A DNA stretch of 63,505 bases, filler included, from Basidiobolus ranarum (taxonomy: Eukaryota), in NCBI GenBank assembly GCA_040143965.1. It is 51 parts of 51 records of this genome, joined end to end, with 100 filler letters (N's around TTAATTAATTAA, not from the genome) between each part and the next. Parts side by side here need not be neighbours in the genome. Positions count along the whole stretch, not along the records: positions 17,539 to 18,689 come from JASJQH010013101.1; 50 more parts are not named here. One strand, 5' to 3'. Numbering within the stretch: the stretch's first letter is position 1; each line of letters opens with the position of its first letter. A model generated the notes under the pieces. The model saw only the letters and a program-made list of their open reading frames with translations, did no database searches and was not told where the DNA came from. The position numbers and the translations under genes were made by a program. Positions 7,524 to 32,357 of the stretch are shown here, piece by piece.

Positions 7524-8676
7524 AAATATTAGTCCACTCATAGCACTTACAGTAAAGGAAGCAGCTTTGATTATTGAGGAGTGGAGAGCTCAATCCAATC
7601 TTAGCAACCAGGTGTTTATTGGTTTTCTTACACTTTTACCACAGTTGATTGGTAACTGTTGCTTGCTACAGACCTGGTACAAGTGGAAAACACTTGTCAA
7701 TTGTATGCCTTATAATCCTTCAGTGATTAAACTGCCTTCTTGTCCAAATTGTTGTTTGGCTTTCACCGTTGATCTGAAAAACCTGAAGTCAAGTACTGTT
7801 TGCACACAATTGGCAATCACTAAATCAGGTAAATATTGTTCATATTTGGCTTACATACTGTTGATTCCCCAACTTAAAGTTTTGATGAAATCACCAAAAT
7901 ATAGTTCATTGATCCAATACCAAAATACTCACCATAAAGCTGATGGTATTACCAATATACTTGATGGATATCACTACCAGAATCTGAAGAGTCAAGGTTT
8001 CTTTGCAAACATGTATGGTAATGCATTTGCATTGGCTCTGGATGGTTTCTCACTAAACAAATATACCATTGGAAAGGCTTGCTGGCCAATAATTGTAATC
8101 AACCTAAATCTTCCTCCTCCTGAAAGGTATAAGAGTCATAATATTGTGATACTATCCATTGTATCTGGACCTAAATCACCTGTGCTTATAGTTAGCTTCT
8201 TGGAGCCTTTGATTATGGAATTTGAATGGTTATCTAATGGGGTTTGGATGGGTGAATATATGATTAAAGCTAATATCATTGTATGTATTGGTGACACTCC
8301 GGCAATCAGTAATCTTGGTGGTTTTTGTGGGCACAATGCACTATTTTGCTGTAGATTTTTCAAATCAATGGAGTTTACTCTATCAGGCATATGCTTTACT
8401 ACTGTCCAAATACAATACTATACTTCATGATTTTACCTTCAAGAGCCCGGTCAGATTTCAACATGATCACTGATATCAATTCACCAAATAATCAGTGTAA
8501 CATCAAACTTGGTATTAGCAATAAGCCTGAGATTATGTTGTTGAAGGGGATCAGCTAGAGCCAGAGCTTCCCATTAGGCACCATGCACTTACTATTAAAC
8601 AACATTCCAATGCTACTTATTCAGCTATATAATGGAAAATTCAATATGAATGAGCCAATTGAGATAGGATCAAAGT
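7524..8676 (+). mobile_element. CMC/CACTA (Transposase_21-like) transposase, frameshifted
   Basis: CPNC...C zinc motif, LALDGF (first catalytic D), WPIIVINLNLPPPERYK, GPKSP, FLEPLIMEF, GDTPA (second D), GH-A--CCRF. Confidence 0.9.
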
Positions 8677-12533: not shown

Positions 12534-12664
12534 TCCCAATGGAGCGCACCTGCGGTGAAATGATGCTCCGTGTGAAATCGTCAGTATTACCGTATGCTAA
12601 TCTGATTAACAATGTATCAGCAAAATCAGTGATGGATGTAATGCAATGGGTTAAGGAGACTCCA
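12534..12664 (+). mobile_element. CMC/CACTA transposase C-terminal fragment, CpG-intact copy
   Basis: PMERTCGEMMLRVKSSVLPYANLINNVSAKSVMDVMQWVKETP matches degenerate copies near 2520, 14330, 34210 and 48050. Confidence 0.9.
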
Positions 12665-12853
12665 GCAAGTGCCACACCCACATCTAGCCCAAATCCTGAT
12701 AATTGCAATGGAGTCGCGGCTTGGAATACTCACACTGCATATTTCGAGTCGCAAAAGGTTACCTACAAGGGCCACTTATGGAAGGCTCAATGGTGGACAC
12801 AGAGCCAGGCTCCCGACACTAGCAGTGCTTGGGTCGATATGGGGGCTTGTTAA
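12665..12853 (+). CDS. Pro/Thr/Ser linker + CBM5/12 (ChtBD3, ChiC-like) chitin-binding domain; C-terminus of a secreted enzyme
   Basis: CNGVAAW...AY....KVTYKGHLWKAQWWTQ...P.....WVDMGAC*; AATAAA follows near 12892. Confidence 0.9.
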   Translation, partial: ASATPTSSPNPDNCNGVAAWNTHTAYFESQKVTYKGHLWKAQWWTQSQAPDTSSAWVDMGAC

Positions 12854-17438: not shown

Positions 17439-17699
17439 NNNNNNNNNNNNNNNNNNNNNNNNNNNNNNNNNNNNNNNNNNNNTTAATTAATTAANNNNNN
17501 NNNNNNNNNNNNNNNNNNNNNNNNNNNNNNNNNNNNNNAGCTATCTCGTATCTGGATCAATTGATCATACCCACACATATCGTCAACAAACCAATGTCTT
17601 TAAAATAACCTACATGCTTCCTTCTCTTCCTCTTTTTCTTTTTTTCCACTTTATCTCACATACATAATATTTTATACTACACTAAGTCAGAAGAAGAAA

Positions 17700-18568
17700 C
17701 GTTAGAGGTAAATAAATAACATACATGAGCAGTCACACTCTTTTGTTCTTGTATATCTTTTGCTTTTACAAGATGCTGACAAAAGATTTTTTCGTGAAGT
17801 CTTTTTGTCTCTTATTGACAAACGGGTCAGAGATGGAAGTATAGTATGACCGGTAAATCCCGGCCTTCAGCCAAAGTGCGTCAGGCGAGAGAGAAAATAA
17901 ACGTTTATAAAGAAGAATATTGTCAACTTGCTTCCTATACACCTATTAAATTAGCGAATGCTCGACCAATAGCAATTTACGTTATACCGCCTACATTAAT
18001 AATGTAGCTCTTCACTTTGGAAATCGTCTCAGAATGTTTCTAAACAAGGTTTTACGAAAGAAAGAAAAGATCGAGAAGCTGACTCAAGATACGAAAAATA
18101 ACAGCTACTCAGAAGAGGAAATAAAAACTTCCGTCAAAGCCAGTATACTTGATGTCTGCGATAAGATTAGAGTAAAAATTTCTTCAAGAACTGTACCAAC
18201 TGCTCCAGCAAATTTCTTGGATGGCTGTGCATCAAATTCAAAACTTTTCGGACATTTACCCAGACAGTTACAAGTTGGCAAAGGGCTCTGTTTACTACGA
18301 CGCCAAAGCAAACCCGCAGCAGGATTTACGCGTATTTTATATGCTCACAAAAATATGTGAAGAGAATAATATGAAATCGTTTAACTGCTTCCCACTGCGA
18401 AAAGGCTTTATCCCTTCTTATATGACAATAGATACCAAGACCTTGAAATATCATATATTGAAAAACAAGAATTTCACTGGTAACAAGGTCGATATTTGAG
18501 GTAGTATCATTAAGCTAAACTGTAAAGCTCCTAAAAGTCAAAATGCCAAGACAATGAAGTTTGAGGGT
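17700..18568 (+). pseudogene. Fanzor1 (eukaryotic TnpB-related nuclease) N-terminal/REC-WED region, pseudogenised; RuvC absent
   Basis: Ordered motifs across frameshifts: FFREVFLSL; YCQLASYTPIKLANA; AYINNVALHFGNRLRMFLN; SVYYDAKANP; SFNCFPLRKGFIPSYMTIDTK; DI*GSIIKLN; MKFEG, resembling zygomycete Fanzor1 proteins just before the TDG motif. Confidence 0.72.
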
Positions 18569-18789
18569 GTTGGCTTTGCTGATGTTGATCTTGCTACTGC
18601 TCTTTCCCAAGCTAAGCGTAATTTCAAACTATCTGTTGATTTCGTTAGTGCTGTCCTTCAAGATAAACATACTTTTTCAAGACTTAATANNNNNNNNNNN
18701 NNNNNNNNNNNNNNNNNNNNNNNNNNNNNNNNNTTAATTAATTAANNNNNNNNNNNNNNNNNNNNNNNNNNNNNNNNNNNNNNNNNNNN

Positions 18790-18894
18790 TTCTACTCCCT
18801 TATAGTTTGGATCATAGGAGCGCTCAAACACACTAGCATTGATGGCTAGAGCAGTGGAGAGGACAATTAGTAATTGAGCTGTGATGTATTTCAT
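18790..18894 (-). CDS. Secreted Gly-rich repeat protein, N-terminus (paralog 3)
   Basis: MKYITAQLLIVLSTALAINASVFERSYDPNYKGVE; TATAAATA about 40 nt upstream; not in the ORF track. Confidence 0.85.
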
Positions 18895-19535
18895 TATGGA
18901 GATAGTTGGTTTAGTTGGTAGAGATGGTTTTCCTATTTATAGTTATTTGTTCAATGGCAATTGTACATATCAACTATTCTGATCGCGGTTAACCATGAAA
19001 CATGGTATTTTACATTGATCGAAGTATATATTGGTGTGAGTGTAACACCACTGGAAGTGATGATAGCCCCTGTGCGCATGACATATTCGATTGATAAGCA
19101 ATGAACTTCTCCTACAGAGTCAGTACAGAATTGGATCTATCCAATTTTTGGTTGAGAAAGCGCATCTGCTATTTGCTTTGGTAACTCCTGTCGTTACTTG
19201 TGTAAGTTGATTCAGCAATAGAATATGTTATATGCTTAATGTCAATTCATATAAAATATATGCTCAATGGTGAAGGCTCAAAGAGAGAAAGTAACGGTAA
19301 GATTGTTAAGTAAATGTAACATATGTATGAATAAAGCTTAAGCTTGAACTGAATCTGTCCATATTTATTGGAGTACGTCTATGTTCAAAACTCTAAGAAT
19401 AATGGCAAAATCATGGAAATCGACGAGAAGGCACAATATGTGGCAAAATGGAGTTTATTCATCAAATTAATTCAGGGTATTATCATTTCTATTGAATGAA
19501 ACTATATCAGAACCTATAGTCTAAGAATCAGTTGC

Positions 19536-19940
19536 TTAATATTTCTTATAGTCATCATTTCCACCATGACCACCACCATGACCTCTGCCATATTTTTTAC
19601 CATTACCATCGTAATTATTATCATCATAACCATCGCCACCACCGCCGCCATATTTCTTTCCTTTTCCGCCTCCACGATGATAGTCATCACCGTCATATTC
19701 ATCATCATAATCACTGCCATCACCACCACCATATCTCTTGCCTCCTCCTCCTCCGTGCTTGTAATTACCTCCATCACCATTGCCATCGTATTCTTCATAA
19801 TCACAGTCATCACCACCACCACCGTATTTCTCGGTTCTTCCACCACCGTCACCACCATAGCTTACTCCCTTGTAACTAGGATCATATGAGCGTTCGAGCA
19901 CATTAGCACCGATAGCTAGAACAGCAGAAAGGACAATTAG
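19536..19940 (-). CDS. Secreted Gly/Asp/Tyr/Lys-rich repeat protein, nearly complete (paralog 4)
   Basis: LIVLSAVLAIGANVLERSYDPSYKG..., repeats of K[KR]YGGGG-D..DYD..YDG; ends DDYKKY*. Confidence 0.88.
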   Translation of the reverse strand, partial: LIVLSAVLAIGANVLERSYDPSYKGVSYGGDGGGRTEKYGGGGDDCDYEEYDGNGDGGNYKHGGGGGKRYGGGDGSDYDDEYDGDDYHRGGGKGKKYGGGGGDGYDDNNYDGNGKKYGRGHGGGHGGNDDYKKY

Positions 19941-20040
19941 NNNNNNNNNNNNNNNNNNNNNNNNNNNNNNNNNNNNNNNNNNNNTTAATTAATTAANNNN
20001 NNNNNNNNNNNNNNNNNNNNNNNNNNNNNNNNNNNNNNNN

Positions 20041-31743: not shown

Positions 31744-31750
31744 TATAAAA
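31744..31750 (+). promoter_or_regulatory. Putative TATA box of the CHAP gene
   Basis: TATAAAA about 70 nt upstream of ATG 31818. Confidence 0.45.
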
Positions 31751-31817
31751 CGACAGTGGAAGCTCAATTACAAATCAGAACTGGTCTACTATTAGAAACA
31801 TATCCTTAAACATCAAA

Positions 31818-32357
31818 ATGGTCAATCTTACACCTGCTTTATCATGCGTGTTCCTCACAGCCGCCACTTTCATAGCCTCTTCTGTTAATGCCCTACCAAG
31901 TCACAATACAGTTGCTGCTCCTAATTCTTCAAACCAAATCGAGGTAGCTAGCATATCCAGTAAACTCGCTAATATCAGCGTGCTAGCCTCTTGCTCTCGC
32001 AGCTTCCGCTTCAACAATGGCCAATGTACCGACTGGGCTGATGCCCGCTACTATGAGCTCACTTGCCAGCATACGGAGTGGTGGGGTGATGCTCGCACCT
32101 GGCCCAACAGTGCCCGCAATGTCAACGGATGGGTTGTCTCTAGTCAACCACGCGTTCCCTCCATCATTGTCATTCAGCCAGGCTATCAAGGCTGTGGATC
32201 AACCGGTCATGTCGCCGTTGTAGAGCGTATAAACAACGATGGAAGTGTGTACACCAGCAACTGGAACTACAAGTTCAACGGACAAGGTGGAGTTTATTCT
32301 ACATCCTATGGAAACTTCAATACTGGCAGTGGTGTATCCTTCCTCTGGCATCAATAG
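31818..32357 (+). CDS. Secreted CHAP-domain protein (putative peptidoglycan amidase/endopeptidase)
   Basis: Signal peptide; GQCTDWA (catalytic Cys), WWGDARTW, GHVAVVE (catalytic His), SNWN; intact, intronless; AATAAA about 12 nt after the stop. Confidence 0.92.
   Translation: MVNLTPALSCVFLTAATFIASSVNALPSHNTVAAPNSSNQIEVASISSKLANISVLASCSRSFRFNNGQCTDWADARYYELTCQHTEWWGDARTWPNSARNVNGWVVSSQPRVPSIIVIQPGYQGCGSTGHVAVVERINNDGSVYTSNWNYKFNGQGGVYSTSYGNFNTGSGVSFLWHQ

What the first reader, a model, noticed from the sequence alone, without database searches (positions are those of the whole stretch)
17700..18568. Fanzor1 RNA-guided endonuclease relic: evidence of an OMEGA system in this genome
Seen: across ORFs 18034-18360 and 18221-18499 and flanking frames, the ordered motifs FFREVFLSL, YCQLASYTPIKLANA, AYINNVALHFGNRLRMFLN, SVYYDAKANP, FNCFPLR..FIPSYMTIDTK, (W>*)G.IIKLN, MKFEG. 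Known from recall, not a search: this order matches the N-terminal half of Mucorales-type Fanzor1 proteins, which continue F.G...TDGVG and then RuvC DPG. Here the sequence switches to something unrelated right after FEG, so RuvC and the 3' omega-RNA region are lost. Unlike the other TEs it retains CpG, suggesting low copy number or escape from methylation. Intact relatives elsewhere in the genome could be an uncharacterised Fanzor lineage.
Basis: partly seen in the sequence, partly recalled or inferred. Interest (0 to 1): 0.75.

Follow-up and report, generated by a model that had tools for sequence, protein, structure and literature searches.

The report
Dead, internally deleted Fanzor1 gene fragment
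This is a broken leftover of a Fanzor1 gene, a transposon-borne RNA-guided DNA cutter already well known in early-diverging fungi; it cannot work any more and is an ordinary relic.

Summary
Every listed motif is present. The pieces match the solved Parasitella parasitica Fanzor 1 (PDB 9cf0) colinearly, with E=3e-15 and 4e-25.

Three corrections:
- The window is 51 contigs of about 1.15 kb joined by linkers. The relic fills one contig, 17539-18689.
- The sequence after "FEG" is not unrelated. It is 82.5% identical (E=1.3e-18) to a downstream part of a Basidiobolus ranarum Fanzor1 fragment, P0113. The copy therefore has an in-frame internal deletion of about 227 codons that removed TDGVG and RuvC-I. 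The contig ends 40 codons later, so RuvC-II/III, the zinc finger and the omega-RNA are unseen, not shown lost.
- The nearest relatives are Basidiobolus ranarum fragments at 63-83% identity. Rhizopus proteins are about 55%.

The copy also has three frameshifts and a TGG>TGA stop. CpG retention is confirmed: 0.84 against 0.17 or less in 13 of 13 recognisable transposon contigs. Whether intact copies exist could not be tested. Known family, low interest.

The parts
17539..18689 (.). The single 1,151-base contig that holds the whole finding. It is bounded on both sides by N/TTAATTAATTAA linkers. GC 0.359, CpG o/e 0.84.
17539..17732 (+). 5' flank with no detectable Fanzor1 homology. About 50 N-terminal residues of relatives such as P0011 have no counterpart here. 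T-rich and low in complexity. No repeats and no Rfam match.
17733..17840 (+). Pseudogene segment 1 (frame 3), containing FFREVFLSL. It matches P0011 residues 53-100 (E=1.8e-5, with a 12-residue gap) and P0012 residues 58-78 (67% identity).
17838..17847 (+). Frameshift 1 (frame 3 to frame 2). A tandem AGTAT AGTAT sits exactly where relatives read ...RDGS-(V)TGKS... A 5-base duplication fits the shift.
   Evidence: the duplication is read directly from the sequence, and its role as the cause is inferred
17843..17980 (+). Pseudogene segment 2 (frame 2): ...MTGKS...YCQLASYTPIKLANARPIAIY. It aligns to 9cf0 chain positions 599-635. That match is weak on its own (E=0.16) but is colinear with the others.
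17981..17982 (+). Frameshift 2 (frame 2 to frame 1). Relatives read ...IALYEGTKIYTAYINN..., and the window reads ...IAIY|gt|YTAYINN... Five codons are missing and two bases are left, a net loss of 13 bases.
17983..18222 (+). Pseudogene segment 3 (frame 1): YTAYINNVALHFGNRLRMFLN...PANFLD. It matches 9cf0 at 640-713 (E=3.1e-15) and B. ranarum P0009 residues 1-66 (80% identity).
18220..18223 (+). Frameshift 3 (frame 1 to frame 2). P0009 reads ...ANFLDDMAVHQIQN... without a break, while the window needs a frame change between FLD and MAVHQIQN. This is a small indel, net +1 or -2 bases, with no extra sequence that could be an intron.
18221..18496 (+). Pseudogene segment 4 (frame 2): MAVHQIQN...SVYYDAKANP...FNCFPLRKGFIPSYMTIDTK...NKVDI. 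It is 83% identical to P0009 residues 65-163. Together with the next segment it matches 9cf0 at 720-842 (E=4.1e-25).
18497..18499 (+). In-frame TGA where the relatives have a conserved Trp (the eight relatives checked, and P0005 and the 9cf0 chain). A nonsense mutation.
18500..18568 (+). Pseudogene segment 5 (frame 2): GSIIKLNCKAPKSQNAKTMKFEG. This is the last stretch before the deletion. Relatives continue TIETDGVG...
18568..18569 (+). Junction of an in-frame internal deletion, placed to within about two codons. About 227 residues in P0002 numbering (163-389) are missing, including TDGVG (P0002 166) and the RuvC-I motif IDPG (P0002 220).
18569..18688 (+). Pseudogene segment 6 (frame 2): VGFADVDLATALSQAKRNFKLSVDFVSAVLQDKHTFSRLN. 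It is 82.5% identical to B. ranarum P0113 residues 101-140 (E=1.3e-18). It corresponds to the insertion between RuvC-I and RuvC-II of the P0002/P0003-type proteins, the position of the FRI domain of PpFz1. It is cut off by the contig end.

Best explanation
The contig 17539-18689 carries a dead copy (pseudogene) of a Fanzor1 gene. Fanzor1 is the eukaryotic, transposon-borne relative of bacterial TnpB. It binds a guide RNA (omega-RNA) made from the transposon's end and cuts matching DNA next to a short motif.

The surviving sequence covers the part of the protein before the nuclease core, and then jumps to a piece of the insertion that lies between the first and second RuvC motifs.

The copy is disabled five times over:
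- three small indels shift the frame (about 17838-47, 17981-82 and 18220-23);
- a conserved Trp codon has become TGA (18497-99);
- an in-frame deletion of about 227 codons at 18568|18569 removed the first catalytic RuvC motif.

The N-terminal ~50 codons are also unrecognisable. It therefore makes no nuclease and does nothing today. It records that a Fanzor1-bearing element was once in this DNA.

Its lineage is closest to fragmentary copies in Basidiobolus ranarum, and next to a Rhizopus microsporus/stolonifer Fanzor1 group.

Shown here: the homology, the order of the pieces, the breaks, the deletion and the CpG retention. Inferred: that the ancestor was an active omega-RNA-guided nuclease, by likeness to PpFz1, which cleaves DNA in vitro (passages of PMC11423790); that the breaks are real mutations and not assembly errors; and that CpG retention reflects low copy number or escape from methylation.
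For: Homology of the window's own pieces to solved Fanzor 1 (9cf0), in colinear order:
- chain 599-635, E=0.16
- chain 640-713, E=3.1e-15
- chain 720-842, E=4.1e-25
There is also a weaker hit to SpuFz1 8gkh, E=0.015.

Relatives:
- P0005 matches 9cf0 at E=1.6e-140 and 8gkh at 3e-50, with DPG, E..TS + CxxC and NRD aligned. P0003 does likewise.
- The representative search gave 232 hits at E<=0.001, the best being P0009 at 82%.
- Frame-aware mapping gives a clean 3>2>1>2 frame order with 80-83% identity to B. ranarum P0009 across frameshift 3.

Deletion:
- The tail 18569-18688 is 82.5% identical to P0113 residues 101-140, E=1.3e-18.
- P0113 itself carries the RuvC-I motif upstream of that stretch.
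- The tail against the P0002/P0003 insertion gives BLASTP E=0.001 and hhalign E=0.0018 over 37 columns.

The breaks are not introns. At each one the relatives read straight through, and the window has lost or duplicated a few bases.
Against: - The contig is only 1,151 bases from a very fragmented assembly, and no reads could be examined. Assembly or sequencing errors could account for some frameshifts, and a chimeric join could mimic the deletion.
- The local Pfam copy gives no family hit, either for the window pieces or for the full-length relatives. Family assignment therefore rests on similarity to solved Fanzor1 proteins, not on a curated model.
- RuvC-II/III, the zinc finger, the omega-RNA and the transposon ends are not on the contig, so none of the catalytic or RNA features of the family could be seen in this copy.
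- The first segment's match to 9cf0 is weak on its own (E=0.16).
Confidence: 0.9

Rival explanations
1. The gene is intact, or much less damaged, in the real genome. The frameshifts, the stop and the apparent deletion would then be errors or a chimeric join in a low-quality short contig.
For: All 51 contigs in the window are about 1.14-1.16 kb, which points to a very fragmented assembly. No reads could be laid on the contig. The deletion junction is in frame, which a collapse between similar stretches could also produce.
Against: The breaks are a 5-base tandem duplication, a 13-base loss and a small indel in mixed sequence, not the single-base homopolymer slips typical of sequencing error. There are five independent defects in under 1 kb. 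The closest relatives in B. ranarum are themselves only annotated as 104-166 aa fragments with internal gaps of their own, so decay is the norm in this lineage.
Confidence: 0.06
2. The frame changes are short spliceosomal introns or programmed frameshifts of a working gene.
For: Fungal genes often have short introns, and three frame changes within 500 bases might suggest splicing.
Against: At every frame change the relatives' protein sequence continues without any extra DNA in the window to splice out. Sequence is missing or duplicated by a few bases instead. The TGA replaces a conserved Trp, and the RuvC-I motif is absent.
Confidence: 0.01
3. The contig does not belong to the same organism as the CpG-depleted transposon contigs. 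It would be a contaminant, or a mixed assembly, so it says nothing about this genome's own mobile elements.
For: Its CpG o/e (0.84) differs sharply from the 38 of 51 contigs at 0.17 or below. One near relative is filed under an oomycete on an 863-base contig (P0013), which shows that such fragments do turn up in odd records.
Against: Its GC content (0.359) is typical of the window. Eleven of the 51 contigs, this one included, have CpG o/e of 0.4 or more. Two of the others carry ordinary-looking genes (CBM_5_12, CHAP), so a CpG-normal fraction is part of the same assembly.
Confidence: 0.08

Closest known systems
Parasitella parasitica Fanzor 1 (PpFz1; PDB 9cf0-9cf3; P0160 is a Parasitella protein of 849 aa, labelled 'PpFz1like' by my own inference, not shown identical to the solved chain)
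   Same: The window pieces align colinearly to chain positions 599-842. It belongs to the same family as the window's full-length relatives, with RuvC D/E/D, the zinc finger and an insertion between RuvC-I and RuvC-II. PpFz1 is an omega-RNA-guided DNA endonuclease with a 5'-ATN TAM (passages of PMC11423790).
   Different: Identity is only about 40%. PpFz1 is intact and active, and the window copy is broken and lacks RuvC-I. Direct sequence similarity between the window's tail and the PpFz1 FRI domain is not significant.
Basidiobolus ranarum 'hypothetical proteins' P0009, P0010, P0057 and P0113 (names)
   Same: These are the nearest relatives: 83% and 80% (P0009), about 70% (P0010), 63% (P0057) and 82.5% (P0113) identity to the window's translation. 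Together they cover the window's segments 3-6 and also the part the window has lost (TDGVG in P0010, RuvC-I in P0113).
   Different: They are only 104-166 aa, with internal gaps relative to the Rhizopus proteins, so they too look like fragments of decayed copies. None is annotated as Fanzor. They are not identical to the window.
Rhizopus microsporus 761-aa protein P0003, and the 591-aa Logan protein P0002
   Same: These are the closest long relatives, 55-56% identity. They have RuvC-I/II/III, the zinc finger and a 161-162 aa insertion after YYCNED, to which the window's tail aligns.
   Different: They are much more distant than the B. ranarum fragments, and their insertion has a long Asp/Ser/Gly-rich stretch that P0113 lacks.
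Bacterial TnpB (IS200/IS605, IS607) and the OMEGA systems
   Same: The ancestral family of Fanzor: a RuvC nuclease with a zinc ribbon and a guide RNA from the transposon end (passages of PMC10432273; abstract listing of PMC3627910). Three distant relatives (P0166, P0167, P0168) carry the precomputed label PF07282.
   Different: No direct similarity of the window fragment to TnpB was seen. The local Pfam scan gave no PF07282 hit on the window pieces or the close relatives.

Membership tests
Fanzor1 (eukaryotic TnpB-like omega-RNA-guided endonuclease) | Significant, colinear sequence similarity to experimentally characterised Fanzor1 proteins | tested here: met
   Window pieces against 9cf0: E=4.1e-25, 3.1e-15 and 0.16, in order along the chain. 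8gkh: E=0.015.
Fanzor1 (eukaryotic TnpB-like omega-RNA-guided endonuclease) | RuvC-I catalytic Asp (the ...IDPG... motif) | tested here: not met
   Removed by the internal deletion at 18568|18569. Present in relatives P0002-P0005 and P0113. That this Asp is catalytic is established knowledge of RuvC/TnpB and was not tested here.
Fanzor1 (eukaryotic TnpB-like omega-RNA-guided endonuclease) | RuvC-II Glu, the CxxC...CxxC zinc finger (TNB) and the RuvC-III Asp/Asn | not testable with these tools
   The contig ends at 18689, upstream of where these would lie. They are present in full-length relatives.
Fanzor1 (eukaryotic TnpB-like omega-RNA-guided endonuclease) | Uninterrupted open reading frame | tested here: not met
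   Three frameshifts, one TGA at a conserved Trp, one deletion of about 227 codons, and no recognisable N-terminus.
Fanzor1 (eukaryotic TnpB-like omega-RNA-guided endonuclease) | omega-RNA encoded at or beyond the 3' end of the gene, at the transposon's right end, with an adjacent TAM | not testable with these tools
   That region is not on the contig. Rfam finds nothing on the contig. No genome and no reads were available.
Fanzor1 (eukaryotic TnpB-like omega-RNA-guided endonuclease) | Location inside a transposon (terminal repeats, target-site duplication) | tested here: inconclusive
   No direct or inverted repeats of 14 bases or more in the contig, and no second copy in the window. The contig is too short to contain both ends.
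FRI-bearing Fanzor1 subgroup (Fanzor RuvC Insertion domain, PMC11423790) | An insertion of about 100 aa or more between RuvC-I and RuvC-II, after the YYxNE motif | tested here: met
   P0113 runs RuvC-I ... YYCNNED ... about 40 aa ... the stretch that matches the window tail. The insertions measure 109 aa (P0160), 118-119 aa (P0159, P0019) and 161-162 aa (P0003, P0002, P0158), against roughly 14 aa in P0005 by my count from its sequence. For the window itself this is shown only through its 82.5% match to P0113.
FRI-bearing Fanzor1 subgroup (Fanzor RuvC Insertion domain, PMC11423790) | Sequence homology of the insertion to the PpFz1 FRI domain | tested here: inconclusive
   hhalign of tail+P0113 against the P0160/P0019 insertion gives E=0.18, and 0.09 with P0159 added, over 15 columns. 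BLASTP of P0113 against P0160 finds only the RuvC-I region. MAFFT and hhalign pick the same register...VLQDKHTFSRLN against ...MLNQKHISERLN. HMMER aligns the later part of P0003's insertion to chain 1050 onward.
FRI-bearing Fanzor1 subgroup (Fanzor RuvC Insertion domain, PMC11423790) | Cyclophilin-binding loop (P614 and P616 of PpFz1, per the paper) | not tested
   In the window copy the part of the insertion upstream of the tail is deleted. No binding prediction was run.

The most novel reading that the evidence does not exclude
The window's organism and Basidiobolus ranarum once hosted, and may still host elsewhere in the genome, a distinct Fanzor1 lineage that carries an FRI-position RuvC insertion. 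This would lie outside Mucorales, where the structural paper reported the FRI domain only in Parasitella and Rhizopus. It would imply either an old origin of the insertion or transfer of Fanzor elements between Mucorales and Basidiobolus-like fungi.
Probability: 0.25. Interest if true: 0.35.

Novelty: new member of a known kind. Interest (0 to 1): 0.15.

Why it matters
It matters little in itself. Fanzor1 has been known in early-diverging fungi since 2013 and has been characterised biochemically and structurally since 2023-2024, and this copy is dead.

Two small points may interest specialists:
- The nearest relatives are unannotated fragments in Basidiobolus ranarum. No paper in the searched library mentions Fanzor together with Basidiobolus (0 papers).
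- This lineage appears to carry an insertion at the FRI position, which the structural paper reported only for Parasitella and Rhizopus (passages).

The sharp CpG contrast between this relic and the retrotransposon contigs is a usable marker of which repeats this genome's CpG-mutating process has reached.

Tried and rejected
- Pfam on the five window pieces gave only sub-threshold chance hits (GSAP-16, GrpE and others).
- Pfam on seven relatives gave no relevant family. The precomputed label PF26935 seen is evidently not in the local copy, and I never saw its name.
- The whole-genome search for full-length copies was not possible because no genome is held.
- Earlier notes of this scan were not open.
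- tblastn of four full-length relatives against the whole window found no other Fanzor fragment in the other 50 contigs. blastn of the contig against the window gave only the self hit.
- A tree of 25 sequences over 121 columns left 12 of 22 inner branches unresolved. The window groups with the two B. ranarum fragments and a 213-aa R. microsporus fragment at 85/87 support. Whether that group is nested in or sister to the Mucorales sequences cannot be told, so no transfer claim is made. The rows were my own selection, not all hits.
- The profile-profile test of the tail against the PpFz1 FRI was not significant.
- Rfam on the contig gave 0 matches at E<=1. The repeat scan gave none.
- The search for long proteins close to P0113 gave only 2 hits, at 48-54% identity over 25-34% of the query. 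The same kind of search with P0001 gave nothing above 56% identity. Both are word-based searches, so absence is weak evidence.
- The intron explanation was rejected.
- On rechecking the frames, only a net +1 or -2 shift fits, and this report uses that.

Full report
**What the window is.** The 63,505 bases are not one stretch of genome. They are 51 contigs of 1,140-1,155 bases, sorted by length and joined by 50 linkers of Ns around TTAATTAATTAA. The finding lies wholly inside one contig, 17539-18689. Anything said about "what follows" or "what flanks" the feature is limited by that.

**The observation.** Exact coordinates come:
- FFREVFLSL, 17787-17813, frame 3
- YCQLASYTPIKLANA, 17918-17962, frame 2
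- AYINNVALHFGNRLRMFLN, 17989-18045, frame 1
- SVYYDAKANP, 18287-18316, frame 2
- FNCFPLR and FIPSYMTIDTK, 18380-18439, frame 2
- TGA at 18497-18499
- GSIIKLN, 18500-18520
- MKFEG, 18554-18568

**What it is.** I read frame 2 from 18176 to 18688 through the single TGA with X (P0001).
- A search for longer proteins found 7 hits among 175 candidates. The best were a 591-aa protein (P0002, E=1e-42, 55% identity) and a 761-aa Rhizopus microsporus protein (P0003, 56%).
- These proteins continue after the F.G motif with ...TIETDGVG......LIDPG......E(Y/F)(K/R)TSS.CP.C...HGLLRCKN..C... and ...LWNRD.AA.LNF....
- P0005 matches the solved Parasitella parasitica Fanzor 1 (9cf0) at E=1.6e-140 and the Spizellomyces Fanzor 1 (8gkh) at 3e-50, with those motifs aligned. 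P0003 behaves the same way.
- The window's own pieces hit 9cf0 directly and in colinear order: chain 599-635 (E=0.16), 640-713 (E=3.1e-15) and 720-842 (E=4.1e-25).
- An exhaustive HMMER search of 1.84 billion representatives gave 232 hits at E<=0.001.

The local Pfam copy recognises neither the pieces nor the relatives. The assignment rests on similarity to solved, biochemically characterised Fanzor1 proteins.

**The tail is the same gene, not unrelated DNA.** One representative hit, P0113 (163 aa), matched only residues 130-171 of the query. Its sequence runs from a RuvC-I motif (...CVLIDPGRGDLLYCMHETS...) through ...YYCNNED... to ...VSFADADPATALSQAKRNFKLSVDRVRTVLQDKHTFSKLN....
- tblastn places P0113 residues 101-140 on 18569-18688 at 82.5% identity, E=1.3e-18, in the same frame as the preceding FEG.
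- P0010, another close relative, reads ...MKFEGTIETDGVG... at the point where the window reads ...MKFEG|VGFAD....
- The tail also aligns to P0002 residues 395-428 and P0003 residues 494-526: BLASTP E=0.001 and hhalign E=0.0018 over 37 columns.

So the window copy has an in-frame internal deletion at 18568|18569, placed to within about two codons. It removes about 227 residues in P0002 numbering (163-389), including TDGVG and the RuvC-I IDPG. The contig stops 40 codons later. Whether RuvC-II/III, the zinc finger and the omega-RNA region survive at this locus is unknown. They have not been shown to be lost.

**Other defects.** Frame-aware mapping gives the order frame 3 (17733-17840), frame 2 (17843-17980), frame 1 (17983-18222), frame 2 (18221-18688). 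At each change the relatives read straight through:
- At 17838-17847 there is a tandem AGTAT AGTAT where relatives read RDGS(V)TGKS.
- At 17981-17982 five codons (EGTKI in relatives) are missing and two bases are left.
- At 18220-18223 B. ranarum P0009 reads FLDDMAVHQIQN continuously, while the window needs a net +1 or -2 shift.

No extra DNA is present that could be an intron. The TGA replaces a Trp present in every relative checked. The 194 bases upstream of 17733 show no homology to the N-termini of relatives. This is a pseudogene.

**Relatives and lineage.**
- The four closest proteins (P0009, P0010, P0057, P0113; 63-83% identity) are all "hypothetical proteins" of Basidiobolus ranarum. 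They are 104-166 aa long and have internal gaps of their own relative to the Rhizopus proteins. That lineage also looks decayed.
- The next neighbours are Rhizopus stolonifer, R. microsporus, R. arrhizus and R. delemar proteins, plus one record filed under Albugo candida on an 863-base contig.
- All named full-length relatives found with P0003 are from Mucorales: Rhizopus, Parasitella, Gilbertella, Thamnidium and Cokeromyces.
- No protein of 287-301 aa or more is closer than 56% identity to the window's piece or to P0113. These are word-based searches, so this is weak evidence of absence.
- A tree of 25 chosen sequences over 121 columns groups the window with the B. ranarum fragments (85/87 support) but is otherwise unresolved, with 12 of 22 inner branches open. 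I make no claim about transfer.

**The insertion.** Passages of the 2024 structural paper (PMC11423790) describe an insertion of about 100 aa in the RuvC domain of PpFz1, the FRI domain. It binds cyclophilin and was "only found" in Parasitella and Rhizopus.
- The stretch between YYxNE and LPFRK is 109 aa in the Parasitella protein P0160, 118-119 aa in P0159 and P0019, and 161-162 aa in P0003, P0002 and P0158. In P0005 it is roughly 14 aa, by my count from its sequence.
- The window's tail, through P0113 and P0003, lies in this insertion.
- Direct similarity of the tail to the PpFz1 insertion is not significant: E=0.09-0.18, and none. MAFFT and hhalign do choose the same register.
- I therefore call it an insertion at the FRI position. 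Homology to FRI is undecided.

**CpG.** The contig's CpG observed/expected is 0.84 (0.87 over the coding part, 28 CpGs).
- Of the 51 contigs, 38 have 0.17 or less, 11 have 0.4 or more, and 2 lie between.
- I scanned 80 of the 82 longest ORFs against Pfam, leaving out the two from this contig. All 13 contigs with a transposon domain (RVT_2, gag, integrase, RNase H, Transposase_21) have 0.00-0.17, with TpG 1.04-1.57 and CpA 1.18-1.51.
- The relic has TpG 1.05 and CpA 0.99. In this it resembles the contigs with a CBM_5_12 ORF (0.70) and a CHAP ORF (0.63).
The explanation (low copy number, or escape from a methylation-linked CpG-mutating process) is plausible but untested.

**How it works.** It does not. 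By likeness to PpFz1 and SpuFz1, its ancestor would have been a transposon-encoded nuclease that binds an omega-RNA transcribed from the transposon end and cuts DNA matching the guide next to a TAM (passages of PMC11423790 and PMC10432273). That is inferred for the ancestor and cannot be shown from this fragment.

**Comparison with what is known.**
- Fanzor1 was described in Rhizopus oryzae (4 families), Phycomyces (3) and Mucor circinelloides (10) in 2013 (Table 1 and passages of PMC3627910).
- No paper in the searched library holds both "Fanzor" and "Basidiobolus". The host lists in supplements were not read.
- The other papers were seen only as listings.

**Verdict.** This is a real but ordinary relic of a known family. 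Its reading of the 3' part, and its inference about what is lost, needed correction. Interest is low.

Noticed in passing
whole window (linkers, for example 17439-17538 and 18690-18789): The window is 51 contigs of 1,140-1,155 bases, sorted by length and joined by N...TTAATTAATTAA...N linkers. Neighbouring stretches are not neighbours in the genome.
   Followed up: yes
all 51 contigs: CpG content is sharply bimodal. 38 contigs have CpG o/e of 0.17 or less, and 11 have 0.4 or more. All 13 contigs with a Pfam transposon domain are in the depleted class and have excess TpG and CpA, as expected from deamination of methylated CpG or a RIP-like process aimed at repeats.
   Followed up: partly
window 31749-32354 (+): A 202-aa ORF with a CHAP domain (PF05257, E=1.5e-15) on a CpG-normal contig (o/e 0.63). 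CHAP is mostly a bacterial and phage peptidoglycan-hydrolase domain, so this could be a transferred gene or non-fungal DNA in the assembly.
   Followed up: no
window 12536-12850 (+): An ORF with a chitin-binding CBM_5_12 module (E=3.2e-8) on a CpG-normal contig (o/e 0.70).
   Followed up: no
window 7525-8427 (+): A 301-aa ORF with Transposase_21 (tnp2 family, E=8e-13). This is a DNA transposon that, unlike the Fanzor relic, is CpG-depleted (o/e 0.08).
   Followed up: no
window 18790-19940 (- strand ORFs 18742-18936 and 19536-19988): One contig holds two ORFs that both contain a near-identical stretch, ...LIVLS.ALAI.A.V.ERSYDP.YKGV... One of them continues as a Gly/Asp/Tyr-rich repeat. They may be tandem paralogues of a low-complexity protein. 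The opposite strand reads as a His-rich or Thr/Ile-rich ORF, which is probably spurious.
   Followed up: no
window 17625-17693 (+, frame 3): In the T-rich 5' flank, the translation SSSFSFFPLYLTYIIFYTTLSQK weakly resembles the family's SFNCFPLRKGFIPSYMTIDTK motif (43-48% identity over 21-23 aa, E=0.04-0.15 against a 1.15-kb target, with four related queries). This is probably chance in low-complexity sequence. A rearranged second fragment is not excluded.
   Followed up: partly
relatives P0010 and P0113 (Basidiobolus ranarum): Both annotated proteins skip parts that the Rhizopus proteins have. P0010 jumps from after TDGVG to ...KSYYCNNED. P0113 jumps from just after RuvC-I to ...KSYYCNNED, and ends in an unrelated hydrophobic tail. 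They look like gene models drawn over decayed Fanzor1 copies.
   Followed up: partly
relative P0013: A 194-aa Fanzor1-like fragment, 47% identical to the window piece, is filed under the oomycete Albugo candida on an 863-base contig. This may be contamination or a transfer.
   Followed up: no
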